From a phage, in the NCBI GenBank assembly GCA_012646185.1, contig GCA_012646185.1_4706.1: 64,000 nucleotides of DNA. One strand, 5' to 3'. Under the pieces are notes generated by a model. It saw nothing but the letters and a program-made list of their open reading frames with translations. It made no database searches and was not told the origin of the DNA. The translations under genes and the position numbers were made by a program. This document shows, piece by piece, positions 8,591-58,682 of this stretch (positions are counted from its first letter, which is position 1; the number at the start of each line of letters is the position of its first letter).

Positions 8591-8620
8591 ATCCTCCCAA
8601 CCCGTAAGGGAAGGGAGGAT
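8591..8620. terminator. bidirectional terminator hairpin with GNRA (GUAA) tetraloop, contains conserved 24-mer
   Basis: atcctccc-aa-ccc-gtaa-ggg-aa-gggaggat between convergent CDSs; the 24-mer ctcccaacccgtaagggaagggag (8594-8617) recurs in reverse orientation at 58655-58678. Confidence 0.6.
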
Positions 8621-8636
8621 GGGGTGGTGGATTATG

Positions 8637-10790
8637 TTACTCTGCGGTTTCTTGCTTCGGTAAATAACTTGCTGCAATGTCTTGGGCTAACAATGTATTG
8701 TTTTTATTCGAGATGAAAATACCGTAACTTTCCATTAACGCGTAATACGAACGCACGAGCGTAGAGATCAATCGACGAATATCCATACCTTGAATAAAGA
8801 TATCGGGAAGCCCGGAGGCTTCGATCACCGGTAATGGTATCGTTAAGTTGCTTATCGTTTTCTTATCGTTACGTACAATCCAATCACGGAAACGTTGTTG
8901 TAACCCTTTATCCTCCCAGGAATCAATCCAATCGTTAAGAAGCGTTTTGTTCTTCGTCGCCAACGGCACACGAACCCCAACATAGGGTGGTTCCTGGCAA
9001 TGGCCGTACGATTGAGCAAACACCTCTTCCCACATATCGTAAGACTGTTTCGTTACTGCAACATGCGGTTTCACTTTAACACGTGTTAAGAAATCGGGAT
9101 CACCTCGTTTCATGGACTCAACGATTTCGTTTTCTAACGAGATAATATCATCAAGAACCAATCGAATGCTGATCTTCTCATTACGTAACAGCTTATCCAT
9201 GATACCACACATCATGCGTTCAACACGTTTGACGATCATTTTTGGTGCTGACGCATCACGCATAACAGGACCTTTCAATTCCAGCTTCGGTGGATTGATA
9301 GGAACCCCTTCACGCATGGTCATGTAACCGTAATAGTTTTTACCCATCGAGGTTAACGACAGAATCAAGAACATATATTCGTTCTTCATTTCCATTACGT
9401 ACATATGCTCTTTCGCTACACCGATATTACCAGAACACATCGCCATCAGATGAACCGTAATCTGCGTAACCAGATAGATAAGCGTATTTGCTAAGCGCGT
9501 CGAAACTGGATTGATCTCCATATTTCCAAATCGCCACTGAACCCACTCCTGGCAGGTAAACACCGTCGAGTCGGTATCAGACAACACACCCACTTCACGG
9601 ATTGCTGATGGGAAAGCATAAACGCCAGCCGGTTGGTTCTCGGTACGCCAGAACGCCATAATCAAATCAGCATAGCTTTGAATACGCTGTAGCATTAATT
9701 TTGTCGTTGCTGCAGTAAGACGATAACCAAGCTCATTTCCTTTTTCTAGCGCTACGTAAATCGCTTCCCCGTTCAAGAACTCCGTGCATTGTGCTGTAAT
9801 CCAAGCGACCGTGTTGTTATCCATGGAAGCAATAATGGCTTTAGCCTCTTCCATCGTTTCAACCGGTTCGGATGCCAGTTCACATAACGAGTCAAGAAAA
9901 TCTCGAACAAATTCAGGATTAAGCTCACGTAACGAGTACAGGTTATTGCTGTACATGTAGCAGGCACGTTCCAGTGGGGTTAAACCAGTAATTAACTCCC
10001 GGATAATCAGTTCTTTCTCTGGGTCGAAAGTATATCGATGCAAGCATTTCGATACGTTAGCCCAAACCTCTTCCGGTGTAGGGTAATGTAATTTGTATTT
10101 TACCATTACCTGTTCAATGGCTTTACGATCGCTGTTACGGACAATACTTACGATGTTTTCGATTGCGATATCACAATCGTAATAATGGAAATTGCCCGCA
10201 AGGAAGCGTTCGTTGTTCGCATTGGCTGAACCTGAAGCACAGCGACATGTTGTCGTTAAACTTGGATGCGCGATCGGATTATAAAAAGGGTTAAACTTGG
10301 ACGCCTGGGTTCCTGACAAACTGTTGTTATCTAACTTGGTGTTGGTTTGTCGTTTATCGTGTAACTCAGCTTCATCTTTACGTCCGTGTGCTTGTGCTAT
10401 CGACATTTGTTTCTTTTGTTTCTTACGCAACTTACCGTTTTCAACCGCGAAGTCGCTTAGCACACTGGAGCGTGTCTCACGTGGGTAACAGTTAGCCCAC
10501 ACCGGCGTGATAATTAAATTATTTTCTTTAATATCGTTGAAGTATTGGCTGAACTTGATGACTTCTTTTTCTCGATTTCCTTCGGTACGCTGTGTTAATA
10601 CAAGACAGTCGGGATCAACCATCCCGTATTTTCCACCAGGACGAACCGTTTCAAGAACAAACTGCAACGCTTCCTGCTGTGATATCCCACGCATGCGCAT
10701 TAAGAACAGGGTATAATCCTGTACCGCTTCTTTGGTCATATCCAACGTACGACCATATCCGTTTTCATCGTAAAAGAACGGATTTTCCAT
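8637..10790 (-). CDS. hypothetical protein (717 aa)
   Basis: Long ORF with TGGAGGA SD; contains an SDTDS peptide but no other polymerase or P-loop motif, so no function is called. Confidence 0.7.
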   Translation of the reverse strand: MENPFFYDENGYGRTLDMTKEAVQDYTLFLMRMRGISQQEALQFVLETVRPGGKYGMVDPDCLVLTQRTEGNREKEVIKFSQYFNDIKENNLIITPVWANCYPRETRSSVLSDFAVENGKLRKKQKKQMSIAQAHGRKDEAELHDKRQTNTKLDNNSLSGTQASKFNPFYNPIAHPSLTTTCRCASGSANANNERFLAGNFHYYDCDIAIENIVSIVRNSDRKAIEQVMVKYKLHYPTPEEVWANVSKCLHRYTFDPEKELIIRELITGLTPLERACYMYSNNLYSLRELNPEFVRDFLDSLCELASEPVETMEEAKAIIASMDNNTVAWITAQCTEFLNGEAIYVALEKGNELGYRLTAATTKLMLQRIQSYADLIMAFWRTENQPAGVYAFPSAIREVGVLSDTDSTVFTCQEWVQWRFGNMEINPVSTRLANTLIYLVTQITVHLMAMCSGNIGVAKEHMYVMEMKNEYMFLILSLTSMGKNYYGYMTMREGVPINPPKLELKGPVMRDASAPKMIVKRVERMMCGIMDKLLRNEKISIRLVLDDIISLENEIVESMKRGDPDFLTRVKVKPHVAVTKQSYDMWEEVFAQSYGHCQEPPYVGVRVPLATKNKTLLNDWIDSWEDKGLQQRFRDWIVRNDKKTISNLTIPLPVIEASGLPDIFIQGMDIRRLISTLVRSYYALMESYGIFISNKNNTLLAQDIAASYLPKQETAE

Positions 10791-10851
10791 AAATCCTCCA
10801 AAAGTTATTTAGTCTGTCTACATCATCTCGTATATCTGTTAAAAAAGAAGG

Positions 10852-10864
10852 ACGGCATAAAAAA
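10852..10864 (-). promoter_or_regulatory. late-promoter-like motif TTTTTTATGCCGT after hairpin
   Basis: Plus strand acggcataaaaaa adjacent to hairpin 10866-10893; ~65 nt upstream of the ATG at 10790. Confidence 0.5.
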
Positions 10865-10865
10865 G

Positions 10866-10893
10866 AACCGATCCAGCCGAAGCCAGATCGGTT
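10866..10893 (-). terminator. intrinsic terminator hairpin
   Basis: aaccgatc...gatcggtt inverted repeat followed on the minus strand by a U-tract. Confidence 0.5.
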
Positions 10894-11088
10894 AAAAAGG
10901 ATAATAACTGACAGAAAGATATCGATGATGTTCGTGAAACAAGATCTTCTCTCGTGTACAATGATGCTAGATCAGAGGGAGGTTGTAACACGAGAGGTGG
11001 TCCGCCAAAGAAGGAATAAAAACACGAACCTATCTTATTTCACTGATGGCACTAACCACTCAAAATATATAGTACTGTATGTAAAAGT

Positions 11089-11502
11089 TTACTGATTAAT
11101 CAAGTCGTTAGCAACAATCTTGGTGTAACCCGCCTGATTAAGAATTTGATTAATTTTCGTCACGTCGGTCGCATCCTCAATAACGATGCTGGGTTTATAG
11201 ATCAGCGTCTTGGTAACGACGATTGTACTCTCCTTAATCCAAGGAATCCCTAGAATCACATACTCGCCGTCGGCTGTAATGACCTCGACGTAATTGTATT
11301 TCGTCGGATCGTTCGGTACACTAGACGGGAGCCGGGAATAAATCTGTTGGTGAATGGCATCTACATCACGACCGTTACGTACAGCTGTGCGATAATTGTA
11401 CACAGCGCTAATTTCTACTCCGTTGAAGTTAACCCCAAGTTCTGGGGCGTACACATCAAAACTCACAACAGAGCCAATCTTTTCTAAATCAGAAGCTGGC
11501 AT
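11089..11502 (-). CDS. hypothetical protein
   Basis: 137-aa ORF; AAGGAT SD 8 nt before the ATG. Confidence 0.65.
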   Translation of the reverse strand: MPASDLEKIGSVVSFDVYAPELGVNFNGVEISAVYNYRTAVRNGRDVDAIHQQIYSRLPSSVPNDPTKYNYVEVITADGEYVILGIPWIKESTIVVTKTLIYKPSIVIEDATDVTKINQILNQAGYTKIVANDLINQ

Positions 11503-11513
11503 AATAGCATCCT

Positions 11514-12035
11514 TTATTTAAAAATGTATTCATATCCGAAAGTCGTCGCTGACCAGACCCGGATAGATGATAGTGTTCCGCCACGATAAAACGTTTTTGT
11601 GAATTCCATATCCTGGACAACACGATAATAAACACGTCCGATAATACGCACGATAAGGTTTCGTGATAACGATCTCTCCTCGCAGTATTCATCGATAAAG
11701 TCATCGTCGATATCCGATAAGACAACATCCGCAATTTCTTGCAGTAGATTCCTCATCAGCATCTGCCTTCCTTCGGTACCCCACCCAGACAAACAGTAAT
11801 CGTCTTCTGCCTGACTATAGATGTCGTTAACCGCCTGTTCGAGCAGTTGCTCAAGATAGTAGTCATCGCGTTTTATAACGTGGCGACGGCGCTCAGTGGC
11901 GTATTTTTCCATCCTGTGTTTCTCTTGTTCGGCGTATGTATTAACGACGCCACAGTCTTTTCTGGATCGTCCCACAATGCACGACGAAAACTGGATACTA
12001 CCATAACGGTAGGATAGATTTGTACAACCTCCCAT
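11514..12035 (-). CDS. hypothetical protein (start uncertain)
   Basis: ORF-track coordinates; N-terminal part overlaps ORF 11873..12361 in another frame; an internal Met (MEKYATERRR, near 11912) is a possible true start. Confidence 0.45.
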   Translation of the reverse strand: MGGCTNLSYRYGSIQFSSCIVGRSRKDCGVVNTYAEQEKHRMEKYATERRRHVIKRDDYYLEQLLEQAVNDIYSQAEDDYCLSGWGTEGRQMLMRNLLQEIADVVLSDIDDDFIDEYCEERSLSRNLIVRIIGRVYYRVVQDMEFTKTFYRGGTLSSIRVWSATTFGYEYIFK

Positions 12036-12361
12036 CCGTAACGATGTGCGTTAGTCGTACGTCCGACATTGAACAGACATAGCTGATTTAAGAAACAGAG
12101 CTGCATCTTCGTAAACAACACCATGTCTTCACGTTTAACGTATCCGAGGATATACGCATTCTCGAACGCCTCGCGTGACAAGACGGGACGATTAAGATAC
12201 CGTAACGCTAATACCAACAACGTTGTTATGCGCAACGGATCTTCTGGGTCATTCATGGTACTCAGCTCTGCTTGTAACCAGTCAGGGATAGTAACCGTCA
12301 GACGATAGGTATCTGTTCCACGATCAACCACATTCAATGTTGAAAAAGGCAACATATCCAT
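11873..12361 (-). CDS. hypothetical protein (start/end uncertain)
   Basis: ORF-track coordinates; part of a chain of mutually overlapping minus-strand ORFs in alternating frames. Confidence 0.4.
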   Translation of the reverse strand: MDMLPFSTLNVVDRGTDTYRLTVTIPDWLQAELSTMNDPEDPLRITTLLVLALRYLNRPVLSREAFENAYILGYVKREDMVLFTKMQLCFLNQLCLFNVGRTTNAHRYGWEVVQIYPTVMVVSSFRRALWDDPEKTVASLIHTPNKRNTGWKNTPLSAVATL

Positions 12362-13501: not shown

Positions 13502-13880
13502 TAAGTTCGGTAATGAGATCTGTCCATGTCTCGTGACACGTCATCATTTCCTGTTCTCGACTTAGTATGCCGATGTCTGCGTGGACGCTGGACTCGAACC
13601 GGTCTAAAAGGACCCGAAGAACGTGCACCTTGTCGATGTATTTCACCGTTATCCAGGAAAGCGGTTGCCACCGACTCAGCATCCATCCGGTACTCGGGAA
13701 CCCCAAACTCATATAGTACGGGTTGCACCGGACCGAAGACGGAGCGACGTTGTTTAAATCGTTCCTTAAGGGCAAGGCCTTGTTTAATATAAACGGGTTC
13801 ATTGGCGAGCTGTTCCGCTTTTCGTTTTGCGTGAGCCAATCGAAGTTCTTCCAATTGCCCAAGCCATTCAAATTGTTCAT
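13251..13880 (-). CDS. hypothetical protein (start uncertain)
   Basis: ORF-track coordinates; first ~110 codons are W/R-rich and overlap the 13498..14475 frame. Confidence 0.4.
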   Translation of the reverse strand: MNNLNGLGNWKNFDWLTQNEKRNSSPMNPFILNKALPLRNDLNNVAPSSVRCNPYYMSLGFPSTGWMLSRWQPLSWITVKYIDKVHVLRVLLDRFESSVHADIGILSREQEMMTCHETWTDLITELIERAGDTERIFNEDDPSMERHVDAYHAAASELTNLTMALEPVFGSEFIHVWEHMLEGPYNWALESYNAATFVAIFRAISERRF

Positions 13881-17066: not shown

Positions 17067-17593
17067 TTAACGACAGCTTCCTCCCTCGGAGTTTTCGAGG
17101 GAGGTATTTGCCGTTTGAACACTTTCAGCATGTTCGCAAAATCAGCAGCAATAATACAGGCCGAGGTTGATAGCTTATTACTGAAAATGAGATCGTCCGG
17201 TAAACAATCGAACTGAATACCGTATTGCGTCTTTGTCTCATCAACGATCAATGACGGTGTCGATCTTGTCTTCGCGATGTCGGTGATATACAAACGTAGA
17301 AATAATTCACCGTCTTCGCTATCCATAAAACGATAAGCGTTACCAGAAAACGCAACATGCGGCGTAACGATAAATTGAACACGATCGTCGGTCGGATGGA
17401 TATTTAACCAACGTTCGATATCATTACTACTCACATTTCGCATATTTACTACGGTAAAAGCAAATAGCGTATCGTGATGTTTGGAATAATGCAGCACGTA
17501 CGCCGCACCTTTCTTTTTGTGAATCCCTTCAATGTATTCTATTGTCGTATAGCCAGATTTATATAGCTTTACTTGCGGTTTATCACTCATCAT
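17057..17593 (-). CDS. hypothetical protein
   Basis: ORF track 17057..17674 trimmed to the ATG at 17593, which overlaps the upstream TGA stop (ATGA arrangement). Confidence 0.55.
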   Translation of the reverse strand: MMSDKPQVKLYKSGYTTIEYIEGIHKKKGAAYVLHYSKHHDTLFAFTVVNMRNVSSNDIERWLNIHPTDDRVQFIVTPHVAFSGNAYRFMDSEDGELFLRLYITDIAKTRSTPSLIVDETKTQYGIQFDCLPDDLIFSNKLSTSACIIAADFANMLKVFKRQIPPSKTPREEAVVNQK

Positions 17594-20129: not shown

Positions 20130-20437
20130 GATAGGAATCCTTAGTATGTTTGATATGTTGTTTAATTGACATATTAAGTTTAAAAGAGGTTATGTTTTAC
20201 GTATTGTTAATAACGTATTCTTATCTCTATTAAGTTATGTTCTATCTAAAGATAGTAAACAGATATAATGCTCCCCACCTCCCCATTCTCCCAAGTAATA
20301 CTGGCCTACCGGCCCTCTCCTTTTTAAGGGAGAGAGTAAGCATTCAGTATTGCTCAAATGAATAAGCAAAACAGTATAAACTTACCGTCTCGAGTTATCT
20401 CGAGACGGCGTAGTAGTATCTGTTTATCTCTTTTATG

Positions 20438-21923: not shown

Positions 21924-21951
21924 TGCATTGCCTTCCGCGAGTGTAATCAGG

Positions 21952-21975
21952 AAGGTAATGTAGGTTTATTTTAAT
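21952..21975 (-). promoter_or_regulatory. degenerate early-promoter-like motif (TACATTAC on minus strand)
   Basis: Plus strand gaaggtaatgtaggtttattttaatc resembles the site at 60951 (gaaggtaatatagtcctgttattttttt). Confidence 0.3.
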
Positions 21976-23273: not shown

Positions 23274-23427
23274 CAATGTAACGGTAAAACTTTACTGACG
23301 TTGGTTATTATTTGAAGCATAGGGCTTCACCCAGGAGTACCATCCCTTTAAGTCGTTTGTCCTCTCCTGGTTAACTGTCGTTCTCTCACAGTGCTCGACA
23401 GACCAAAAATGCTCAGGCCTCATAGCC

Positions 23428-23456
23428 TCCTCTGGGAATGGAACCCAGAGGAGGAC
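23428..23456. terminator. bidirectional terminator hairpin (11-bp stem)
   Basis: cctcctctggg-aatggaa-cccagaggagg between convergent CDSs. Confidence 0.55.
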
Positions 23457-23466
23457 TATGTTTGCC

Positions 23467-26092: not shown

Positions 26093-26104
26093 ATAAACTC
26101 CTCC

Positions 26105-26131
26105 GATGGAGGGTGCCGGGCACCCTCCATC
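26105..26131 (-). terminator. perfect 13-bp palindrome hairpin immediately upstream of terL SD
   Basis: gatggagggtgcc-g-ggcaccctccatc. Confidence 0.45.
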
Positions 26132-26142
26132 GTTGTATTACC

Positions 26143-27882
26143 TTATGCGACTTTACTAATAACGACTGCTGTGATACCGAGATGTAGGTCGACGCCATTC
26201 TGTACTTTAATCCAGCGGATATACAGGTTAGCGTTATCCTGTCCCGTACCACCTGGGACGTTATTGTTCCTATTCCATTGCGAGATTTCGAAACGTTTCT
26301 GCACGTTAGGACCAACCATGATTTCAAAGTGGGTCGGTTCTGGTGCTTTCGATTCCGTTTTCTCAAGATAGAGCGGATGTGTCGTGTAGTAAAGCTGCTT
26401 CAACCATTCACCCAGATCTGAGTGTTTGTTCGTCAAGTCAACATACGCGTTACCAGCAACATCGTAAGTAAACAACGCTTTCGTGTTACGACCGTACACA
26501 TCCGTTGTCGTCGGCGTTGTTTGCGAGCTGAACGTTACTGTCCAGTAATCACCGGATGTTGCCGAACCTGCTTGCAGTAACGTCATTCGAATAGTCTGCG
26601 TATGACGTACGCGTTTGTAAACGGTAGGATCGACTTCATCTAACCAGATGTTGTACGCAAATTCCTGAGGTTGTCCGTATTTCTTCGGATTAAACTCAGG
26701 GCTGTTCAGCGCCAATTGTACTTTATCGGTTACGTTGTAGTATCGCTCACGGTCAACGTTGTACAACCAGAACACCAGCTCATATCCCACTGCATCAGAT
26801 ACCCATTGTGGATAGCAGAACAGTTTAACACTGTATGCCCCTTTCGCTTCTTTAGAAACGACGGTATAAGGTACGCTGATGTGTTTCACTGCGCCAGGTA
26901 ACGCGTAGGATGTGTCCTCATCATCGTCCAGGTAGTAGTGTAACGCCAGCGGGTGTTTGCTGTTGATAACCTGGGACGTGAAGACGTTAAGGCCGTCCAA
27001 CACAACCTTGTTACCAGTAACCGGCCAATGTTTAATGGAACCATCACTGTAGGTGACTTCAGCCTGAAGGTCGACGGAATCCAGGTTGACGTTAATCGGC
27101 AACTCGAGTAGTTTGGTATCGCTGCTGCTCAGCCACGTTGACTTCAGTCGTACCCCGTCTTCCAGAATATATTTAATACCCCGGTCTGGTGTGCGTACAT
27201 AGTCGGTGATACGAACAATCATACGTTTCATGGATAGTGGCTGTGGACCGTCACCATAACCTACTACCATCACCTGCTCAAAATCTTCGACAGGCTTAAT
27301 GCAGTAACCTTCACGAGGTGCCCAGATAGCTTTATTCGTTCCGTCTTTGTAAGCGATAAGCTGACACGGAATGAAATCACTGATCTTATTCCCGCTGTTG
27401 TCATACATCGCACTGATGATTTCGCCTTTGGCGCTGATATCAGAACCGCGGAACACTGCGATACGTCGAATATCCGAGCCATGCAGATGGAAACGACGAT
27501 CGATGTTCATTGTAGCAGGGATCGTGTTCGTATTAATCAATACACGCCATGTATCGTACGACCACGTCGGGTCAATACCTTCAAAGGTTGTCGTCTCATC
27601 ACCCTGGCCGTCGAATGGAGCAGACAGCTGACCGATAAGTTTAAGGGTACTTAGTTTTGTGCGATCGTCTACGGCGATAACACGGTACACCGCATTCGTA
27701 TCCCAGTCTTCAACTTTATCGTCCACGTTGGGGACGTAAAGTTTCCAGTCTTCTTCAACGCCATTATAGATCTCTTTATACGCATAGGTGGTATAGCGTC
27801 TGTCGAGATCCTGAATAGCGAGTTTATCCGGATGCTGTTGTGCATAAAGCACCGGATTGGTAATCTCTCTTCCCATTATCAC
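26143..27882 (-). CDS. hypothetical protein (likely virion/morphogenesis module)
   Basis: 579-aa ORF; its ATG overlaps the stop of the upstream gene. Confidence 0.65.
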   Translation of the reverse strand: MIMGREITNPVLYAQQHPDKLAIQDLDRRYTTYAYKEIYNGVEEDWKLYVPNVDDKVEDWDTNAVYRVIAVDDRTKLSTLKLIGQLSAPFDGQGDETTTFEGIDPTWSYDTWRVLINTNTIPATMNIDRRFHLHGSDIRRIAVFRGSDISAKGEIISAMYDNSGNKISDFIPCQLIAYKDGTNKAIWAPREGYCIKPVEDFEQVMVVGYGDGPQPLSMKRMIVRITDYVRTPDRGIKYILEDGVRLKSTWLSSSDTKLLELPINVNLDSVDLQAEVTYSDGSIKHWPVTGNKVVLDGLNVFTSQVINSKHPLALHYYLDDDEDTSYALPGAVKHISVPYTVVSKEAKGAYSVKLFCYPQWVSDAVGYELVFWLYNVDRERYYNVTDKVQLALNSPEFNPKKYGQPQEFAYNIWLDEVDPTVYKRVRHTQTIRMTLLQAGSATSGDYWTVTFSSQTTPTTTDVYGRNTKALFTYDVAGNAYVDLTNKHSDLGEWLKQLYYTTHPLYLEKTESKAPEPTHFEIMVGPNVQKRFEISQWNRNNNVPGGTGQDNANLYIRWIKVQNGVDLHLGITAVVISKVA

Positions 27883-34557: not shown

Positions 34558-34594
34558 CCTTCCTTCCCCGGCCTTGACGGCTAGGGAAGGAAGG
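34558..34594. terminator. bidirectional terminator hairpin (11-bp stem)
   Basis: ccttccttccc - loop - gggaaggaagg between convergent CDSs; A10 run upstream on the plus strand. Confidence 0.55.
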
Positions 34595-34606
34595 TTTATG
34601 GTTTAT

Positions 34607-35602: not shown

Positions 35603-35632
35603 CCACCGTAGCCCCATACAGGGCTACGGTGG
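35603..35632 (-). terminator. hairpin (12-bp stem)
   Basis: ccaccgtagccc - atacag - gggctacggtgg. Confidence 0.45.
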
Positions 35633-37166: not shown

Positions 37167-37178
37167 ACGGCATAAAAA
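37167..37178 (-). promoter_or_regulatory. late-promoter-like motif TTTTTATGCCGT after hairpin
   Basis: Plus strand acggcataaaaa adjacent to hairpin 37181-37208. Confidence 0.5.
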
Positions 37179-37180
37179 GT

Positions 37181-37208
37181 ACCTCCTTACCCACATGGGT
37201 AAGGAGGT
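37181..37208 (-). terminator. intrinsic terminator (12-bp perfect stem, 4-nt loop)
   Basis: acctccttaccc-acat-gggtaaggaggt followed on the minus strand by a U-rich stretch. Confidence 0.6.
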
Positions 37209-37359
37209 TCGTCCATCACGACGAAAGGACGTTATGTGACGCGGTGTCCATAACGGCCCTGGTAGCAGGCATCAAAGATAACAAAAAGGATGTAAGTTGA
37301 GCTAAACCACCTAAATACGGTAACGATTACTTCCGTACACAATATAACGCAACATCTTT

Positions 37360-41523: not shown

Positions 41524-41549
41524 CGAGCAGGGGCATGAAGCCCCCTGCT
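41524..41549 (-). terminator. intrinsic terminator after RNAP beta-like gene
   Basis: gagcagggg - loop - cccctgctc, followed on the minus strand by UUUAUUUCG. Confidence 0.55.
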
Positions 41550-41550
41550 C

Positions 41551-45897: not shown

Positions 45898-45900
45898 GGG

Positions 45901-46080: not shown

Positions 46081-49000
46081 CCTTGTCTTCGCCTCAGGTC
46101 GCTACGCTGAGACCGCCTGCATGGATACGTACATCACAGGCTGCTTGCACTTTCATGCAAGAGGAGACTATATCAAACCGGCAGCGCAACCTGCTACGGT
46201 AACCTACACTTCGAAGACGCTCGTCCTCTACAGGGTGGTAAATCCCTTAGTCGTTGAACCTGCGTTGTTTCACATTCTTGTTTGTAAGAATGTCGTATTA
46301 CTACGCAACAACCAGGCTGCTGATTGCCCATTGTTTCGCACCTTAGCACCGCTTACGCGGCTTTTCTTTCAGCCTAAGCCTCTTACGGAGGTAGTGCATC
46401 TCAACTGTTGTTTCTGCCTTTCGGCACCTCATGGGTCGTTGAGCTTTAGGGGTTCCCAGCATTTCGTAGGTTTTTCAAGCACTCCCTTTCGGGAATACCG
46501 GACTCATTATTAGCTTATTTATTCAAGTATCTGAAATCCCACTTATCTTTACGTCGTTTATCGCACTTGATGTCAGGATGATTAACACGATGCCTAATAG
46601 TTGTTGCCGATAGCTGGCTGAGATTCTCAGCAGATCGTGCGCCAAGAACAACGAGTTTTGTGTCGTCTGGACGCGTAACTTCTACTGCCCGATAATGCTT
46701 ACGTAACACATCACGCCAATATTCACGACGTTCTGGTTCAGCATACTCAAGCATGTAACCGTTAACATCTACTAAACCGTAGCTTTCGTTTAATCGAGAG
46801 GTAGCGGCTGGTTTACTAATACCGATTGCTTTAGCCGCATCGACCACGGTTTTATACGGGGTCTCATTACCGTCTCTATCTACAACCACAATGAAATCTG
46901 GACGTGAATCGAGTAGCTGCTGTCTGCGTTCGACGGCTTGTTGATGAAGCACCATGTTAACGTGTTCGAACCCGTAACCTTCTGGACCGTGCCACCCTGG
47001 ATTGTTATTCGCTCGATAAAGTACCGTCGCAGATTTCACTCCAGTCTGACGTGACGCCTCGTTTGCACTATGAACAACCGTGGTAGAGCCGTCAGGGTGA
47101 TATATCCGTATCTGGTTCATTATACCGGAACCAATGAAGTTACCATCAGCTGATTTAATATCCGGCCATGGTTGAGGATCATCTTTGAATTTAACCACCC
47201 AGCGGTTATTAAACAGTTTGACTTTTCGAACATGTTTGCCCATTGTCGTATCCGTAACACCTGCGACTACTGATGCCTGTGTGATACTCAGGTACTCAGT
47301 AACGGTATCGTTCCATGTATCCCAAAGCAGAACCGGTTTATTGTCGTCGCGTAAACCGTATTCGATGGCGTGTAGAACGTTACGACTTCTGGTCGCCCAT
47401 TCAAGATTATCGAGAGAGTAATTCCATTTGTCGGCATCGAGATGATTAACGTCCAACTTATCGACATTAGCCGGATATTCCCGCCACGCCAACATCAAGC
47501 AGCGATGCAGAACCTTAGTTCTCGTTACATCCCGACAATCATGACGTAGACTAATGAATACGTAATTATCCTTTTTCGGATACGATCTACATTCCTGACC
47601 GTCTTTGCGGCGAATAACTCGTCCTTTCTCATTTATCAGATAACGGGTGTGTCCAGGAATGACACGATAACCAGGGTACTTAGCGATTTCGTAAGCAGGC
47701 TCGAACCGATAGGATAAATTATCAACATCCCAGTTAGATTCGTCACCATCAACAAACATCGCTTTGACGTACTTCTGTGTTTCAATATCAACCAGGATGT
47801 TTTTGTGTGCGATACAAATCAATGCTGGGATATTGAATTCACGACCGGCTAAGATAACCATGTCGCCATTTCTCGGTATCACGACGTGGGTATCACGATA
47901 CCGTAAATTTCCATAGCCGTCTATTTCAATCCAGCTTAGAAACGGAATGGATATAAACTCTTTTTCAGATACTCGCCATTTAAACATCTTAATACCTATT
48001 TAATACTAAACATCATATTAATAGGTTTAAAAGTTAAAAATGACAGAAAATGGCTAAATTGAATCACCGCCTAAACCGGCGAGGTACGGGGCAGGAACAA
48101 TAGTAGTTTCTACGAATGATGCATTAGGTAACCAGTCGGGGTATTCCCATGCGATAAATCGTTCATCCGTTATTGGTTCCCAGTTACTATCCAGTTCGGT
48201 TTTCGGTTTTGCCGCAACGGTTGTACGTGCGTAACAGGTTAACGGGATAACGGATTGCATACCGGATACCGGATAACGTGTTACCATCGCAGCCAGGTTA
48301 TTCCAGTACTTATAACCAGCGATATAAATAAGCTCGGTGTAAGTAATGGGGTGAACATCCGCACCAGGCTTATTCAACATCTCCGGAGGTAATTCACTCA
48401 TACCACGGAATAACCGAAACGAATCATTGTTCACATAGACGAGGCAAAGATATCGTCCATTGACCATGATAGGCTCGTTACGCACGCCAGGATCGCTTAA
48501 GGTGTTCAGTAAACGTTCTATTCCGTCCCAGGTTGTAAAGTCATCGATGGTGTCTGGATCAAGCGTGACACGTTCACGTTCCATCGTTTCGGTATCAATA
48601 AGTTCAACTTCTGTAACGTCACGAACAAATATTTCCTGCAAAATACCGGTACGTAACGCATGTTGCGTTACTGGGAGAGCAGCTTTACTCATCTGGTATA
48701 ACCCTAACTGAACTGCGGTACAGGAAGGCTGGTTAGGCGACCCTAATACCTCCGTTGTGGGGTTAATTGCCGAAATAACGTTACGGGTTGAGTTCCAAAC
48801 GCGACGTGAACCAAACTTCCCTTGGAAGATCCCTTTCTTACCTTGGAACATATCCAACAACAAAGCGTAGATATCGTTAAACGTTCTCTGTAAGCTCCAG
48901 CGTTGGCCGTCGTAAACGGGATCGGAATAATCTTTTAATCCATCAGGGACGGTGTTAGAAATTGCAAGGAAACGACGATACAACTCCGTGATTTCTTGCT

Positions 49001-55700: not shown

Positions 55701-56440
55701 GTAACGTATTACGCGATCCCGCAAAACGGGGTGACGTACGCCAAGTTCGTTATCTGGTTAACGGTGGGTTTAACGGATTACGTGATGTTGAACAACGTTC
55801 AGCTTATTGGATTCAGGCGGCTAAGAATGGCACCCTGAAGAAAATGATGGACGAGTTATCAGGGTCAACATCAGACGATCAAGCTGAAGGACCAACCACT
55901 GCCGAACAGGTGAAGAACGAAGCAGCACAAGAGGCAAACGGAACACCTGCTGTAAGCAACGATCCGCAAGCCCCAGCATCTTCTACTACCCCTGAAGCTA
56001 AACCGTCTGCGGCTGCCGGGACGGCCCCAGCACCTGGAGAAGCATCACCAACGCCCGGAAGTTTCGAAACAGCAAAAGCCGCGGCAGGACAACCGACATC
56101 AACTCCAGCACCTAGCGATTTGCCGTCAAACCCGGGTGCAAATCGAGGGATATCGGTTCCGAATACACCTGCACAGGTTGCGCAGTCTGCGACACAAACG
56201 TCGGCTGCAAGTGAGAACTTCTACGGTAGCGCAGGTGAAATTCTCCGACAGCAGCTGACCACGCAGCAGAACATCGAGAAGAACACCGGTAGAACGAATG
56301 AACTTATTTCGGAATTAATCCAAGCCGTTAAGGGTTCTTCTATCGGTAAGGGTTCTGCAAGTCCTTCTCAACAACAGGCGATGTCGCTACCTAATCGTCC
56401 GCAAGGAATCTCTCCAACACGGACAAGGTACGCACAGTAG
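49775..56440 (+). CDS. giant tail-associated protein with C-terminal GH19 (chitinase-like) peptidoglycan hydrolase domain
   Basis: ORF track 49682..56440 trimmed to the ATG at 49775 (GGAGGT SD); ~2,220 aa; Gly/Ala/Leu-rich hydrophobic segment (approx. 53400-53700); GH19 signatures AMFLANIEHESGNY, YLGRGFIQVTGKANY and SVAWWLNRG at approx. 55270-55830; positional analogue of phiKZ gp181. Confidence 0.8.
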   Translation: MVDKTRVEGDDNWDNWDEDFSLDLDFNEPKDDRKPITRFAIGAVKGAAEDLTSYERMREIARNALPKGYSDGMDLIDSAVGSTKELYNEAVRDVLPKVQSSKRLAAQLTKKYRASMPDFSKKILEQWEQEAKEEDERKKAEETLRQRMASAGDDEIARKVAEALGESANQSADQFAEQQAKESIRDDIADKRYAVTNKQMSAMQEGVAKMVGFNNEFAARYMRKSLELKYRSLAIQRASFDQHKKLAEVYIGLLQNIQKNTALPDAAKAKMSEEFRRSAYQRFFGNALDAMGSFENRFFADVKKNLATNALGALKGVVSGANDALYGLNEARDSMSMMDGMGSEGDIKEMQGKMLGQLIGSTVVPWMADKGRMALRDLAKRHPNAKFASALKAVDQGGEAAAYTTRNLGKLLQEDIRKNEFNLSDPFYKQLLRGAGRWAFNMDSGRNFRVMNDTAETLAEQTSFDGLTYRSINEVIPGFLARILKSSEGIRTGNSDPDYEVYDGISGQFVSQRTREQSVNDTLFNKRTFGYYASRFNEVISVIDPDKQLSEKARKALAKQLARDSDANIAFDPARFTDESNFDRSIDRDAIKELSTYFRDRYGIRDDVNDKGERHQVIGNRGQYYTERNRADLRYGNLKSLQPDIQRNLNLLKRTGDVQYLERIGIVTRNSDGSYSVNHDRYFSEIDRYIDRPEYAERSDVNTRLTAQETRALALGYRDAKPSVDDVQNAGLPNIDRKAVGTVTVDENIGYDKWWNDTGVITTSLEEQNRAWQELYLEALSEASEQRVEMLALLKAISEKDWSNNVSLDGEDVPEGAAPISFIDRAKQKLGGRNLFKGGRNLLWKGIKNTARLGVKGARWGAERTLGSLVNSGRRIINFNRFVFGALSKVDQVPFDIYVKGESQPRILAAKLRQGLYFDEATGKAVKRMKDIKGPLVDADGNIVISNEDIEKGLVTRAGRAFENSGLKAWAREGLNGITTVLSLPRMLKRGAVEIYKQLDKTPDVYVKGESTPRLLSMVLAAGGYFRRSDGQVIKNLEDIDGDVVDAQGNVVLTLADMQKGLVDKYGKAIRRLKEKLINFGVKAFTLPLTLLRKTKDILKALPGKTVNGLRRMGLNVQSPDALLVGTTSSMVDRLDAIYQLLDQRMPGGDKDYRDWNGDGVREGSLEDLKRKREAKENGKDDTGKDSNKGEEKEKKRGLLGSLFDMLGDTALGKRLMASPLGKILGGLGAVLSGGASLTGLLGKGLISGTGALVKGGLSAAGWLGRGALMAGGAALNAVGGLSGLGAFLISPVGLAIAGGALAAYAGWKIYQHFAEKPDPMQKLRLIAYGAKGDDKDFNKKLLATETYLTDHVVMTGDTIGFDPKADSEKILEIWELSLEDSDRMNEWKRWYLHRFIPVFARAYKLWKEHMPDEKKYMEMDKYPNGENKVKWSEAFIWPSDSPDGPYYVEANPLGSSGATRYIAGQDVKTLMLKQLEAIKKEYQNQIKQYSHDEAIADWSRMSDTQRKSVAPNALRGQKASLRFNDKRYNSAGAKGRQKLDATAVIESVDRRGRKWVAGGYIDELTSLRVRAYGIKVPLLSQIKVLMELEDAVEPGVVAEGKGVKYGGDLVALYKKFATKFGRDVNSKHDQDIWFAWMNNRFLPVFLTYYQQVSEMGGQGLLSDVVQNLKDSQRWEIGEALVATQYRDEKGTLQPVWSWNSCGFSGTEANTTSSSTKSQLDLLKEYADKEKVREKNAEASQEDTDKLSKIQELMMKQAGYEKKDGVWQKKSRITGGMSNSEANYNPNRNKVGESSFTASATSNAGLGSTGDLTGLPNMGLQKPAMGPGPEAGRRALVKSAVKRGITDPMEMAMFLANIEHESGNYTHVREGNYKTPERLKQVFPYKFRDVQDAAQTISMGPEAVFERVYGNRKDLGNTQKGDGAKYLGRGFIQVTGKANYARLSKTLNKDLVSDPTYLETPEGAAEGSVAWWLNRGNVLRDPAKRGDVRQVRYLVNGGFNGLRDVEQRSAYWIQAAKNGTLKKMMDELSGSTSDDQAEGPTTAEQVKNEAAQEANGTPAVSNDPQAPASSTTPEAKPSAAAGTAPAPGEASPTPGSFETAKAAAGQPTSTPAPSDLPSNPGANRGISVPNTPAQVAQSATQTSAASENFYGSAGEILRQQLTTQQNIEKNTGRTNELISELIQAVKGSSIGKGSASPSQQQAMSLPNRPQGISPTRTRYAQ

Positions 56441-56452
56441 TCATTAGTTAAG

Positions 56453-56471
56453 GGCGGGAGATTCCCGCCCT
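56453..56471 (+). terminator. GC-rich hairpin (8-bp stem) after giant gene
   Basis: gggcggga-gat-tcccgccc followed by tcttctt; may act as an attenuator since the next gene is co-oriented. Confidence 0.45.
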
Positions 56472-56489
56472 CTTCTTGAGGAATGTTAC

Positions 56490-58634
56490 ATGGGTATTCT
56501 TGTTCAAAACGCCCTAATCACCAAACAGGCATTTTTATTACCGGGCGATAGCAGCACGCTGAGTGCCGACATGATTAAAGCGAGACATACACCGTATTCC
56601 TACGATAACGTCGATGATACCACCTTAGGTGGGAACTGGGTGCTTAACCCGCCGCCGCAATATACAAAATTTGCCGACATCAAAGAACGCCGACGTGCGG
56701 TTATGCCGGGATCAACGGGTATGGGTCGAGGCTATAGTGAAAGCATTAACAGCTTTAAAGAAGTCGTTACGTTACGATTCGGTAAACCTCGCTTTACAGG
56801 CGCAAGTATCTTCTTTACTGATTTCTACGATGCGGATGTTGCCGTAACGGTTAAAACCGGTCGCGATCCCGGTATTCTTTATTACGCGGCCAAAGCGTAT
56901 ACCACCGTTCTTTCTTACCTCACACCGCTACCTTACTTGTATATGGTTGGACGTATCGGTCGATATTTCCTGGGTAAGCCAACCAGTCAATATTACTATC
57001 AAGTACCAACCATGCATGTGTATTGGGCGTCTTTCCAGACGTTGGTAAACCAAACAGCGATAAACATGGGTCTTATCGCCGGTGCCGGTAAAGATAAAGG
57101 CTACGTGGAAGAAGGAGGTACCGTACTCCACCAATATTCAATCGGTGGTCAGAACGTTGAAGAATTCATCAACTACGCCTCTAAGACGCTACCGGGGATT
57201 TATAAGAAAGGTGGTGGGATCGATATCTACCAGATTGCAACACGTCGTCAGCGCATACAGAACGCATGGGTACGTCGTATTCAATCCATGATGGAAAACG
57301 ATTACTCGTCTTACGAGGAGTTCTGGAACGATCTTGATAAACGACTTGATAGTGGAGCATTTCCATCGGATGTAACCGGTCGTACGTTAACGCAGTATCT
57401 CGCCGATGTGCAGAAATCTAAAGTTTATAGCGTCGAAAACAAAGGCGATAATAAACAAACAATGGACGACCTTTTATTCGGAAGGGCCACATACACCAAC
57501 AAGGATGCTGATGCCAACTTCAATGTCTCAGCGGCTACCTCCGACGGTGGTACGTCAACACAGAGTCAGGGCACAACAGCCAATGTCGGTAATTCGACGT
57601 CAGGGACAACGCAGGCTTCAACAGCAGCATCGACGGCTGGAGGAGCGAACGTACAGAGCAAAGGAATCGGTCAAACAAATGCGGCCGAGGAAGCTAAGTT
57701 TCTTGATCTGATGGATGCTGAACTGGCCGATGGCGCTCAGTTTATCAGTTTTCGAGTCGACTCTGTCACCAGTGTAACCGAAACGTTTTCAAACAGTGCT
57801 TCAGAAAGTTCAATCGCGCAGACGATGAACAGTCGTGCGCAAGCGAACATCGAACGTCGTTTCACCCTTTCCGGTGGTAATACAGGTTGGGCTATATTGG
57901 ACGAAGCCATCAAAGCCGGTTCCGATCTCGTTAATGGTGCTATTTCCGGGATGGGCCTGGATGGTATTTTTGGTGCCTTCATGGGTTCCGGCTTCGCTGA
58001 CATTCCGAAATTCTATTCCGGATCATCGGTAAGTCTTCCACGCGCAGATCTAACGATGGAATTGCGTTCTTGGAGTGGGGACCGCTGGTCGATCTTTACG
58101 AACCTCATGGTACCTCTTTTAGCGATCCTTGCAGGTGGTTTACCTCAGGCTACCGGTAAATCGTCCTACGGGATGCCATTCATGTGTGAGTGTTATATTC
58201 CCGGTAAAGTTCAGATTAAAATGGGCCTTATCGACAACATCACTGTGACGCGTCATGTTGGAAACGTACCATCGACACGCGAGCGATTACCGTTGGGTAT
58301 CGACGTCAGCTTCAGCGTTTATGACCTGTCGTCCATCGTCGCCATGCCGATCACAACGACGGCCGCATCGATCGCAAAACTGGATCCTCGCGGCTTCTTA
58401 AGTGATCTTCTTGCTGACGATACGCCGCTCAACAACTATCTTGCTGTATTATCGGCATTGACACTTACGGAACAAGTTTACATGATTCCGGATTTAAGTC
58501 GTCGCATGCATAAAACCATGGCTGATATCGATAGTTTCTGGAGCAAAGGTAATTTTGCTAGCTGGTTGTCTGACACCATGCCTGGCAGGATAGCATCAGG
58601 GCTGTTATGGAAACGTACAGAACGACCGTTCTGA
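56490..58634 (+). CDS. hypothetical virion protein (714 aa)
   Basis: Long ORF with GAGGAA SD, co-oriented with the giant tail-protein gene. Confidence 0.7.
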   Translation: MGILVQNALITKQAFLLPGDSSTLSADMIKARHTPYSYDNVDDTTLGGNWVLNPPPQYTKFADIKERRRAVMPGSTGMGRGYSESINSFKEVVTLRFGKPRFTGASIFFTDFYDADVAVTVKTGRDPGILYYAAKAYTTVLSYLTPLPYLYMVGRIGRYFLGKPTSQYYYQVPTMHVYWASFQTLVNQTAINMGLIAGAGKDKGYVEEGGTVLHQYSIGGQNVEEFINYASKTLPGIYKKGGGIDIYQIATRRQRIQNAWVRRIQSMMENDYSSYEEFWNDLDKRLDSGAFPSDVTGRTLTQYLADVQKSKVYSVENKGDNKQTMDDLLFGRATYTNKDADANFNVSAATSDGGTSTQSQGTTANVGNSTSGTTQASTAASTAGGANVQSKGIGQTNAAEEAKFLDLMDAELADGAQFISFRVDSVTSVTETFSNSASESSIAQTMNSRAQANIERRFTLSGGNTGWAILDEAIKAGSDLVNGAISGMGLDGIFGAFMGSGFADIPKFYSGSSVSLPRADLTMELRSWSGDRWSIFTNLMVPLLAILAGGLPQATGKSSYGMPFMCECYIPGKVQIKMGLIDNITVTRHVGNVPSTRERLPLGIDVSFSVYDLSSIVAMPITTTAASIAKLDPRGFLSDLLADDTPLNNYLAVLSALTLTEQVYMIPDLSRRMHKTMADIDSFWSKGNFASWLSDTMPGRIASGLLWKRTERPF

Positions 58635-58650
58635 TATTCACTGCATAAAC

Positions 58651-58682
58651 CCCTCTCCCTTCCCTTACGGGTTGGGAGAGGG
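58651..58682. terminator. bidirectional terminator hairpin containing the conserved 24-mer in reverse orientation
   Basis: ccctctccc-ttcccttacgggtt-gggagaggg; 58655-58678 is the reverse complement of 8594-8617. Confidence 0.6.

What the first reader, a model, noticed from the sequence alone, without database searches (positions are those of the whole stretch)
8594..58678. An identical 24-nt terminator element with a GUAA tetraloop is reused at two convergent gene junctions in opposite orientations
ctcccaacccgtaagggaagggag at 8594-8617 is the exact reverse complement of 58655-58678. Each copy folds as CUCCC-aa-CCC-GUAA-GGG-aa-GGGAG and is extended by further flanking pairs. Both sit between convergently transcribed genes, consistent with a bidirectional terminator, but exact reuse of 24 nt suggests a specific recognised element, possibly an RNA-binding or processing site.
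Basis: seen in the sequence. Interest (0 to 1): 0.45.

Follow-up and report, generated by a model that had tools for sequence, protein, structure and literature searches.

The report
Repeated two-way terminator hairpin, jumbo phage
The two identical 24-base hairpins are real, but they are two of three copies in this window (about sixteen in the related phage Goslar) of a repeated hairpin that very probably stops transcription in both directions in a Goslar-like giant phage of E. coli. It is the counterpart of a terminator motif already mapped in phage phiKZ, and the opposite orientation comes from hairpins flipping often in these genomes.

Summary
CTCCCAACCCGTAAGGGAAGGGAG lies at 8594-8617 (+) and 58655-58678 (-). 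None is expected by chance, both copies fold strongly on both strands, and both sit between convergent genes.

The window is a 96-98% relative of the nucleus-forming E. coli jumbo phage Goslar. The 24-mer is not a private pair. It belongs to a genome-wide family with 3 copies in the window and 16 in Goslar. All lie just 3' of genes, 9 of them at convergent junctions.

The shared design is CATAA, a pyrimidine arm, a 2x2 A•A (U•U) internal loop, CCC-N4-GGG, a purine arm, then TTATG(Y)(T)GT. Stem covariation supports the pairing.

This design matches the conserved phiKZ terminator motif (61 mapped 3' ends), and phiKZ instances read here carry the same CATAA and TTATG flanks.

The GUAA loop is not conserved. 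Orientation is not fixed either: orthologous hairpins are flipped between near-identical phages, including site 2 in Goslar and six other hairpins in this window.

Exact identity between copies probably reflects copy replacement between family members.

Verdict: a new member of a known kind, the chimallivirus-type bidirectional terminator. Termination was not shown directly for this phage. Interest is moderate to low.

The parts
8594..8617 (.). Site 1 core hairpin: CTCCC-AA-CCC-GTAA-GGG-AA-GGGAG, with the AA/GTAA form on the + strand.
   Evidence: It is identical in Goslar and flipped in the 183-kb IMG/VR relative (L015).
8571..8630 (.). Site 1 full structure. The outer stem CATC/GATG (8590-8621) is enclosed by a further helix, CACC.CCC with GGG.GGTG, that carries a 10-nt bulge. 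The bulge (CTCTTCCCTTG) looks like a degenerate half-copy of the flipped arm.
   Evidence: Folding. Covariance model hit 8590-8621 at 47.6 bits.
8566..8570 (.). Site 1 left box CATAA. It contains the TAA stop codon of the + gene 7476..8570. Read on the - strand it is the TTATG that follows the hairpin.
   Evidence: The box is conserved across the family and in phiKZ terminators.
8632..8636 (.). Site 1 right box TTATG. It directly abuts the stop codon (8637-8639) of the - gene 8637..10790.
58655..58678 (.). Site 2 core hairpin, an exact reverse complement of site 1, with the AA/GTAA form on the - strand.
   Evidence: Goslar has the opposite orientation here with loop GTGA. Two other relatives have the window's orientation with loops AACA and AGCA.
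58643..58689 (.). Site 2 full structure: GCATAA (CATAA at 58644-58648), outer stem CCCT/AGGG (58651-58682), the core, then TTATG (58684-58688). The stop codon of the - gene is at 58689-58691.
   Evidence: Covariance model hit 58651-58682 at 51.1 bits.
37171..37210 (.). Third family member in the window: CATAA (37171-37175) followed by the perfect 12-bp stem ACCTCCTTACCC-ACAT-GGGTAAGGAGGT (37181-37208). It lies 3' of the head-protease gene homologue. Its loop is flipped relative to Goslar (ATGT).
   Evidence: 39.5 bits.
7476..8570 (+). Gene ending at site 1, the homologue of the Goslar gp245 hypothetical protein.
8637..10790 (-). Gene ending at site 1 from the other side, the homologue of Goslar gp244, which RefSeq labels 'DNA polymerase'.
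56490..58634 (+). Gene ending at site 2, the homologue of Goslar gp203.
58689..59807 (-). Gene ending at site 2 from the other side, the homologue of Goslar gp202.

Best explanation
The two copies are members of a repeated, phage-specific, bidirectional transcription terminator of a Goslar-like chimallivirus (a nucleus-forming jumbo phage that transcribes with its own multisubunit RNA polymerases).

Proposed mechanism: whichever convergent gene is transcribed, the nascent RNA forms a GC-rich two-tier hairpin. It has a 9-bp pyrimidine-arm/purine-arm stem, a 2x2 A•A or U•U internal loop, a 3-bp CCC/GGG stem and a 4-nt loop. An A/U-rich UUAUG(Y)U segment follows, and the polymerase releases there. 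The element, including its CATAA and TTATG flanks, is an almost perfect palindrome, so both strands encode the same signal.

The identity of the two 24-mers, and their opposite orientation, come from DNA-level processes acting on the palindromic arms. One is frequent inversion of the segment between the arms (flipping). The other is replacement of one copy by another (gene conversion).

Shown here: sequence, fold, covariation, family size, placement at gene ends, shared architecture with phiKZ terminators, flips and copy replacement. Inferred: that RNA 3' ends actually form here in this phage, and which polymerase responds.
For: (1) The window is 96-98% identical to Escherichia phage Goslar, region 164589-229733.

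(2) The element is a family. The pattern CTCCCWWCCCN4GGGWWGGGAG occurs 6 times in each of three Goslar-like genomes. Allowing up to 4 substitutions, Goslar has 16 copies and the window 3. A covariance model finds the same 3 in the window (51.1, 47.6 and 39.5 bits), then a gap down to 16 bits.

(3) Fifteen of the 16 Goslar copies lie between annotated CDS, within tens of bases of a stop codon. The copy at 134589 overlaps the 3' end of a 75-aa hypothetical CDS. Nine copies sit at convergent junctions and seven between co-directional minus-strand genes (with 26).

(4) Pairing is supported. In the alignment, 94% of cells are paired and 7 of 12 pairs show changes on both sides, including the class switch CTCCC/GGGAG to CCTCC/GGAGG. 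None of 500 shuffles reached the observed values, and slid controls gave 49-67% paired.

(5) The architecture is published for phiKZ. Sixty-one ONT-cappable-seq-mapped intrinsic terminators share 5'-BCCYCCCCHWWDGGGRRGGBYTTATKYYGT-3', and 6 are bidirectional at convergent genes (PMC10914365). 201phi2-1 has a similar motif (n=59) and 15 bidirectional terminators (PMC11512511).

(6) phiKZ instances read here carry the same flanks, for example aacataat-GCCCTCCC-gcaa-TGGGAGG-gcTTATGCTGTtaag at a convergent junction. Goslar has aacataa-CCCTCCTCC..GGAGGAGGG-aaTATGCTGTTA.

(7) An outward-facing TATG within 14 nt of strong Goslar hairpins occurs 25-26 times, against 5.5 ± 2.3 at random and 3-10 for the inward-facing control.

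(8) The three copies that lack the right-hand TATG are all at co-directional minus-strand junctions. The one copy that lacks the left CATA has a T9 run there instead.

(9) Distant chimalliviruses (25-33% protein identity) have CTCCCTACCC-N4-GGGTAGGGAG directly after the homologue of the macro-domain gene, where Goslar also has a copy.

(10) The pattern is phage-specific. It gives 61 scattered hits in 596 Gb of bacterial genomes, none from an enterobacterial genus by record title and only 3 with the AA/AA or TT/TT form.
Against: No transcript-end data for this phage or for Goslar were available.

Neither site has a U-tract, and a canonical hairpin-plus-T-run scan calls nothing at either site.

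The published phiKZ IUPAC motif itself does not match the window even with 3 mismatches, because the stem geometry differs.

In the predicted fold, UUAUG is paired with CAUAA rather than free.

The strict invariance of the A•A/U•U internal loop and of the G in TATG is not required by a purely thermodynamic terminator.

Mapped 3' ends in phiKZ could in principle be processed or exonuclease-trimmed ends rather than termination points.
Confidence: 0.75

Rival explanations
1. The element is an RNA 3'-end stabiliser or processing site rather than a true terminator. The long imperfect hairpin would block 3'-5' exonucleases, or be cut by RNase III or a similar enzyme, as at the conserved intergenic RNase III hairpins of T7. 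That would define mature mRNA ends after read-through transcription.
For: With its outer CAUAA/UUAUG helix the structure spans about 20 base-pair equivalents and has a conserved internal loop, which resembles RNase III substrates (my own knowledge of T7 R1.1-type sites). The copies sit at the 3' ends of genes. The absence of a U-tract fits a non-termination role.
Against: The phiKZ and 201phi2-1 counterparts were classed as intrinsic terminators, and several 201phi2-1 terminators worked in a heterologous terminator trap. The conserved TTATG(Y)(T)GT box downstream of the stem has no obvious role for an exonuclease barrier. The two functions do not exclude each other.
Confidence: 0.12
2. The element is a site recognised by a specific phage protein, either as RNA (for example for export from the phage nucleus, translation control or antitermination) or as DNA. 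The near-identical sequence of the copies would then be the recognition code.
For: Sequence is conserved well beyond what pairing needs. The CCC/GGG inner stem, the A•A (U•U) 2x2 loop and the CATA and TATG boxes are invariant or nearly so across about 40 copies. The same 10-mer arms recur in chimalliviruses with only 25-33% protein identity. The AA/AA form is almost absent from bacterial hairpins that match the same pattern.
Against: The loop is variable, and the whole core flips between orthologous sites with no sign of counter-selection. A strand-specific RNA code is therefore unlikely. Stem classes covary rather than being fixed. eCLIP of the chimallivirus RNA-binding protein ChmC found no motif, and binding was near start codons, not 3' ends. 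No candidate binding protein was identified.
Confidence: 0.1
3. The element is a selfish or neutral repeated palindrome (REP- or MITE-like) that spreads by recombination and has no transcriptional role.
For: Copy replacement at an orthologous site. The copy after the macro-domain gene is CTCCC/agca in Goslar but CCTCC/gtaa in a close relative. Loops at site 2 differ in all four relatives, yet each loop variant also exists elsewhere in the family. Orientation flips are frequent.
Against: Copies are found only just 3' of stop codons, never in 5' regions or inside confident genes. They preferentially occupy convergent junctions. The architecture is conserved from Pseudomonas phage phiKZ to E. coli phage Goslar. 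No transposase or RAYT-like gene appears in the Goslar annotation.
Confidence: 0.03

Closest known systems
Conserved intrinsic terminator motif of Pseudomonas phage phiKZ (5'-BCCYCCCCHWWDGGGRRGGBYTTATKYYGT-3', 61 sites; Putzeys et al. 2024, PMC10914365) and motif A of phage 201phi2-1 (PMC11512511)
   Same: Both have a GC-rich hairpin with a pyrimidine-rich 5' arm, a purine-rich 3' arm and a 4-nt loop. Both are followed by TTATG/T-YYGT and preceded by CATAA (read directly in phiKZ). Both are repeated tens of times per genome just after stop codons, and both are used bidirectionally at convergent genes.
   Different: The Goslar-type stem is two-tiered (9 bp + 2x2 A•A/U•U loop + 3 bp) rather than a single 7-bp stem, so the published IUPAC motif does not match. 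The G of TATG is invariant here, whereas it is G or T in phiKZ. No 3'-end mapping exists for Goslar-like phages.
Canonical bacterial bidirectional intrinsic terminators (hairpin flanked by an A-tract and a U-tract)
   Same: Both are palindromic hairpins between convergent genes with complementary A/U-rich flanks that extend the stem and serve both directions.
   Different: There is no U-tract. The flanks are the specific boxes CATAA and TTATG. Stem polarity is C-rich 5' and G-rich 3'. The responding enzymes are presumably the phage's own sigma-less multisubunit polymerases.
Hairpin-associated small inversions ('flip-flop') in chloroplast intergenic spacers such as trnH-psbA (PMC2903610)
   Same: The segment between short inverted-repeat arms is found in either orientation in very close relatives, far more often than point substitutions would predict.
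   Different: Here it occurs in a lytic jumbo-phage genome, at terminator hairpins, and is accompanied by exchange of loops and stem classes between paralogous copies.
REP/BIME extragenic palindromes of enterobacteria
   Same: Both are short imperfect palindromes repeated many times, extragenic, at 3' ends of genes, and found in both orientations.
   Different: There is no sequence relationship. The pattern is absent from enterobacterial genomes. No RAYT-type transposase is annotated in Goslar. The CATAA and TTATG boxes are specific to chimalliviruses.
Phage T7 RNase III processing hairpins (R1.1 and others)
   Same: Both are conserved, repeated intergenic hairpins with an internal loop in a phage that uses its own RNA polymerase. 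Both would leave a stabilising 3' hairpin.
   Different: The T7 sites are unidirectional, longer and have asymmetric internal loops. No evidence of cleavage exists here.

Membership tests
phiKZ-type conserved chimallivirus terminator | GC-rich stem-loop with a pyrimidine-rich 5' arm, a purine-rich 3' arm and a ~4-nt loop | tested here: met
   CCCTCTCCC..CCC-N4-GGG..GGGAGAGGG folds as predicted and covaries. The same arm polarity is seen in phiKZ instances.
phiKZ-type conserved chimallivirus terminator | Stem followed by a TTAT(K)YYGT box | tested here: met
   On the + strand, site 1 has GATTATGTTAC and site 2 has ATTATGTTAAC. On the - strand they have GATTATGCACC and TTTATGCAGTG. Other family copies have TATGCTGTTA.
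phiKZ-type conserved chimallivirus terminator | Match to the published IUPAC motif BCCYCCCCHWWDGGGRRGGBYTTATKYYGT | tested here: not met
   No match in the window with up to 3 mismatches. The Goslar stem is longer and two-tiered, so this is the same architecture but not the same motif.
phiKZ-type conserved chimallivirus terminator | Many copies per genome, located just downstream of stop codons, including convergent junctions | tested here: met
   There are 16 copies in Goslar, 9 at convergent and 7 at co-directional junctions. The window has 3.
phiKZ-type conserved chimallivirus terminator | RNA 3' ends map at the element | not testable with these tools
   No transcript-end data are accessible. 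Goslar short-read RNA-seq exists (bioRxiv 10.1101/2023.09.20.558163) but was not analysed for terminators.
phiKZ-type conserved chimallivirus terminator | Host genome is a chimallivirus encoding its own multisubunit RNA polymerases | tested here: met
   The window is 96-98% identical to Goslar. It includes the nuclear shell protein gene and several RNA polymerase beta-like subunit genes.
Canonical bacterial intrinsic terminator | Hairpin immediately followed by a U-tract (at least 5 T in 8) | tested here: not met
   No terminator-like site is called at either locus. The 3' flanks are GATGGGGTGG... and AGGGATTATG....
   In the AA orientation the family's loops are GTAA, GTGA, GTCA, AGCA, AACA and ATCA, and TA-type copies have ATGT/ACAT and others. 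Flips place UUAC on the transcript instead.
Rfam-described RNA family | Score at or above a family's gathering threshold | tested here: not met
   Nothing was found at the sites at gathering thresholds. Only sub-threshold generic miRNA-hairpin noise appears at E up to 1.
REP/BIME-like mobile palindrome | Presence in the host chromosome and/or an associated RAYT transposase | tested here: not met
   The pattern is absent from enterobacterial representatives, with 61 scattered hits in 596 Gb. No transposase is annotated in Goslar. Protein-level RAYT searches were not run.

The most novel reading that the evidence does not exclude
Termination in chimalliviruses may be partly sequence-specific. 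The invariant TATG that follows these hairpins (and its mirror CATA) is the same tetranucleotide that the phiKZ non-virion RNA polymerase recognises at late promoters. There, the beta-lobe of a core subunit (GP123) binds it on the non-template strand (PMC4666361; PMC12809450). That subunit stays in the elongating enzyme, so it could re-bind TATG, pause the polymerase just as the hairpin forms, and so replace the missing U-tract. Alternatively it could allow immediate re-initiation at the G. The conserved A•A/U•U internal loop would then tune hairpin folding or recruit a factor.
Probability: 0.15. Interest if true: 0.65.

Novelty: new member of a known kind. Interest (0 to 1): 0.35.

Why it matters
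Goslar is the main E. coli model for nucleus-forming jumbo phages, yet no analysis of its terminators or promoters turned up in the papers searched. A defined, compact, bidirectional terminator family would help in three ways: delimiting transcription units, interpreting the existing RNA-seq data, and engineering the phage.

The same CATAA-hairpin-TTATG design occurs in phiKZ (Pseudomonas) and Goslar (E. coli), whose shared genes GenBank annotates only as 'weakly similar'. This points to a termination signal tuned to the chimallivirus RNA polymerases rather than to the host.

Frequent hairpin flipping and copy exchange also matter in practice. They create clusters of apparent mismatches in alignments of close phage relatives, and those clusters should not be read as point mutations.

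Tried and rejected
- **Chance repeat:** rejected.
- **Known RNA family:** none at gathering thresholds, and only miRNA-like hairpin noise at permissive thresholds.
- **Canonical hairpin-plus-U-tract terminator:** not called at either site.
- **Literal phiKZ IUPAC motif:** no match in the window. The relationship is one of architecture, shown by reading phiKZ instances directly.
- **SD plus start codon of a downstream gene:** the 3' arm GGAGG/GGGAG followed by TATG could in principle act this way. Only one Goslar copy (49780, gp047) has an annotated start at that ATG. At the two window sites the ATG opens ORFs of only 2-15 codons, read. Rejected as a general function.
- **Hairpin as part of late promoters:** the best-studied phiKZ late promoter, P119L, has TATG but no hairpin upstream. 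Promoters and terminators therefore share only the tetranucleotide.
- **Host or bacterial origin of the element:** the scan of 185,579 species representatives gave 61 scattered hits, mostly perfect stems and none from an enterobacterial genus by record title.
- **TSS/TTS tables of the phiKZ study:** the supplements are not held as text, so I could not test whether TSSs coincide with the terminator TATG.
- **Fixed strand bias of the AA form:** Goslar shows 13 AA, 2 TT and 1 symmetric copy on its + strand. The 183-kb relative shows about 6:4 by my reading, so orientation is not fixed.

Full report
**Observation**

The 24-mer CTCCCAACCCGTAAGGGAAGGGAG is present at 8594-8617 (+). Its exact reverse complement is at 58655-58678. 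No further match exists in the window within 3 mismatches, and 100 dinucleotide-preserving shuffles gave none.

Site 1 gives -33.2 kcal/mol on + and -37.6 on -. Site 2 gives -30.1 and -29.8. The z-scores range from -2.5 to -5.3.

Both sites lie between convergent ORFs: 7476..8570(+) with 8637..10790(-), and 56490..58634(+) with 58689..59807(-).

**Origin of the window**

The window is 96-98% identical to Escherichia phage vB_EcoM_Goslar (NC_048170), region 164589-229733. Goslar is a nucleus-forming jumbo phage (chimallivirus). The nuclear shell protein gene is at window 5326..7221(-), and several phage RNA polymerase subunit genes lie in the window. In phiKZ, a relative of this phage, transcription is carried out by phage-encoded multisubunit polymerases rather than the host enzyme (PMC4666361).

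**The pair belongs to a family**

An IMG/VR scan with the orientation-neutral pattern CTCCCWWCCCN4GGGWWGGGAG found six sites in Goslar. It found six more in each of two other Goslar-like contigs (237.5 kb and 183 kb). It also found perfect-stem variants, CTCCCTACCC-N4-GGGTAGGGAG, in other jumbo-phage contigs.

I loaded the whole Goslar genome with its annotation and allowed up to 4 substitutions. That gives 16 copies in Goslar and a third copy in the window at 37183-37206.

A covariance model built from 22 distinct copies scores the three window copies at 51.1, 47.6 and 39.5 bits. The next hit scores 16 bits.

In 596 Gb of bacterial and archaeal genomes the same pattern gives only 61 scattered hits. 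None is from an enterobacterial genus by record title, most have perfectly complementary stems, and only 3 have the AA/AA or TT/TT form. The family is therefore specific to the phage.

**Anatomy of the family**

The consensus is (A)ACATAA - CCCT - C[T/C][C/T]CC - AA - CCC - N4 - GGG - AA - GG[G/A][A/G]G - AGGG - (A/T)(A/T)TATG(C/T)(T)GT.

- The 5' arm is all pyrimidine and the 3' arm all purine, on both strands.
- Two stem classes exist, CTCCC/GGGAG and CCTCC/GGAGG. They differ by paired changes.
- The outer four pairs vary in a compensatory way: CCCT/AGGG, CATC/GATG, CCTT/AAGG.
- Overall, 94% of cells are paired and 7 of 12 pairs carry double-sided changes. None of 500 shuffles reached these values, and slid controls gave 49-67% paired.
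- The 2x2 internal loop is A•A on one strand and U•U on the other in every Goslar-type copy. It is replaced by T-A/A-T pairs in the distant contigs.
- The loop is not conserved. It is GTAA most often, but GTGA, GTCA, AGCA, AACA and ATCA also occur. The GUAA tetraloop is therefore not a defining feature.

**Position of the copies**

Fifteen of the 16 Goslar copies lie between annotated CDS, within tens of bases of a stop codon. The copy at 134589 overlaps the 3' end of a 75-aa hypothetical CDS. Nine copies are at convergent junctions and seven are between co-directional minus-strand genes.

In the window, the TAA stop codon of the + gene at site 1 lies inside the CATAA box (8566-8570). The stop codons of both minus-strand genes abut the TTATG box (8637-8639 and 58689-58691).

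Across strong Goslar hairpins in general, an outward-facing TATG within 14 nt occurs 25-26 times. Random expectation is 5.5 ± 2.3, and the inward-facing control gives 3-10.

The three family copies that lack the right-hand TATG are all at co-directional minus-strand junctions. The single copy that lacks the left CATA has a T9 run there instead. This suggests a need tied to transcription direction, but the numbers are small.

**Comparison with what is known**

In phiKZ, ONT-cappable-seq mapped RNA 3' ends to 61 predicted intrinsic terminators. They share 5'-BCCYCCCCHWWDGGGRRGGBYTTATKYYGT-3', a stem-loop followed by TTAT, and six bidirectional terminator regions lie between convergent genes (PMC10914365). 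201phi2-1 has a closely similar motif (n=59) and 15 bidirectional terminators, and several of its terminators worked in a terminator trap (PMC11512511).

I read phiKZ instances directly. They carry the same flanks as the Goslar family:

- aacataat-GCCCTCCC-gcaa-TGGGAGG-gcTTATGCTGTtaag, between convergent genes 031.1 and 032.
- ggcataag-CCCTCCCG-caat-GGGAGGG-caTTATGtctt, matched on both strands between 041.3 and 042.

The Goslar-type element is therefore the counterpart of the phiKZ conserved terminator, with a longer two-tier stem. Because of that geometry the literal phiKZ IUPAC motif does not match the window.

It also fails a canonical hairpin-plus-U-tract scan and matches no Rfam family.

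Only two of the 16 Goslar copies are annotated as terminators in the record (27746..27777 and 93445..93476). Sites 1 and 2 are not. The Goslar papers I searched hold no terminator analysis.

**Why the copies are identical and inverted**

Orientation is not stable. Taking orientation relative to the flanking genes in four near-identical phages:

- At site 2, Goslar has the opposite orientation to the window, with loop GTGA. The other two relatives share the window's orientation but have loops AACA and AGCA.
- At site 1, the 183-kb relative is flipped (L015).
- The copies orthologous to Goslar 4153, 48111 and 63719 are each flipped in one relative.

Flipping is not limited to this family. Between the window and Goslar, the segment between the arms is an exact reverse complement at 34558-34595, 35603-35632, 37181-37208 and 56451-56471. 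It is a reverse complement plus one substitution at 20385-20408, 46272-46293 and 58655-58678.

That amounts to seven flips among roughly 17-20 strong hairpins, in genomes only about 4% diverged. The same behaviour is known from hairpin-associated small inversions in chloroplast spacers.

Copies are also exchanged between sites. The copy after the macro-domain gene is CTCCC/agca in Goslar but CCTCC/gtaa in a close relative. That is seven coordinated differences in otherwise near-identical sequence. In addition, every loop variant seen at site 2 exists elsewhere in the family.

The exact 24-nt identity in opposite orientation is therefore best explained by recombination, or template switching, on the self-complementary arms of a repeated element. 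It need not reflect design.

**Mechanism and confidence**

The best-supported reading is a bidirectional terminator for the phage polymerases, made of a hairpin plus an A/U-rich UUAUG(Y)U tail (confidence about 0.75).

Shown here: sequence, fold, covariation, copy number, placement, shared architecture with mapped phiKZ terminators, and orientation independence. Inferred: that termination occurs here in this phage.

Rival readings are a 3'-end stabiliser or processing site (0.12, and not exclusive of termination), a protein-recognised element (0.10) and a functionless mobile palindrome (0.03).

Some features are not explained by a purely thermodynamic terminator. These are the invariant A•A/U•U loop, the invariant G of TATG, and recurrence of the same arms in chimalliviruses with only 25-33% protein identity, at a syntenic position after the macro-domain gene.

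This leaves open a more novel possibility. TATG is also the phiKZ late-promoter consensus, with the G as the transcription start site. In the promoter complex, a core beta-like subunit binds it on the non-template strand. The terminator box could act as a polymerase-recognised pause or re-initiation signal. I found no hairpin upstream of the P119L promoter TATG, so promoters and terminators share only the tetranucleotide. I put this reading at about 0.15.

**Verdict**

The finding is real. It is one visible corner of a repeated terminator family of a kind already described for phiKZ-like phages. It is new for Goslar-like phages and has a distinctive two-tier stem. I rate it as a new member of a known kind, with interest of about 0.35.

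Noticed in passing
window 3310-3671 (-) and 3686-3992 (-): There are two tandem, ORF-less, sub-threshold group I intron-like matches (27.4 and 23.1 bits; gathering score 50). They form a ~370-bp tandem repeat exactly where Goslar carries one annotated group I intron plus an HNH endonuclease gene. Goslar 168164-169661 has no counterpart in the window. This looks like intron-content polymorphism next to an RNA polymerase beta-like subunit gene.
   Followed up: partly
window 46144-46530 (-): A group I intron passes the Rfam threshold (RF00028, 56.3 bits). It lies between RNA-polymerase subunit genes and corresponds to the intron annotated in Goslar at 211817..212245. A hairpin inside it (46272-46293) is flipped plus one substitution relative to Goslar.
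   Followed up: partly
window 20385-20408, 34558-34595, 35603-35632, 37181-37208, 46272-46293, 56451-56471, 58655-58678: The hairpin cores at these sites are exact or near-exact reverse complements of the orthologous Goslar sequence, while the arms and flanks are unchanged. Small hairpin inversions appear to be a major class of difference between these two ~96%-identical phages.
   Followed up: yes
window 34558-34595; Goslar 11184-11222, 84366-84396, 200229-200265: A second repeated terminator-like hairpin family, CCTTCC(TTCC)C-[CGGCCTTGACGGCTAG or its reverse complement]-GGGAAGG, is followed by TTATG. It too occurs in both orientations.
   Followed up: partly
window 37181-37208: From my own knowledge of the E. 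coli sequences: the 5' arm ACCUCCUUA equals the 3' end (anti-Shine-Dalgarno) of E. coli 16S rRNA, and the 3' arm UAAGGAGGU is a perfect Shine-Dalgarno sequence. On the minus strand it is followed 7 nt later by the ATG of a 4-codon mini-ORF. More generally, the purine arms of the family (GGAGG/GGGAG) followed by TATG mimic a ribosome-binding site that is locked in the stem.
   Followed up: partly
window 5276-5299: A strong hairpin lies just 3' of the nuclear-shell (chimallin) gene and has the reverse arm polarity, purine arm first: GGGAGGGAGG-TTGC-CCTCCCTCCC. It is identical in Goslar.
   Followed up: no
window 874-903, 2337-2365, 17080-17104, 20313-20336, 21928-21958, 23426-23454, 26104-26132, 41525-41550, 59795-59822: Further intergenic GC-rich hairpins, many with pyrimidine/purine arms and CATA(G) and (C)TATG flanks. 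An example is CATAG-CCTCCTCTGGG-aatggaa-CCCAGAGGAGG-aCTATG at 23421-23460. They are probably other terminators of the same general design but a different sequence class.
   Followed up: partly
L008 2889-2912, L028 309-332; Goslar 93449-93472: In chimallivirus contigs with only ~32% protein identity to Goslar, a CTCCCTACCC-N4-GGGTAGGGAG hairpin with CATA and TATG flanks sits directly after the homologue of the macro-domain gene (Goslar gp083). Goslar has a family copy at the same position. This may be conservation by synteny, or ascertainment by the search pattern.
   Followed up: partly
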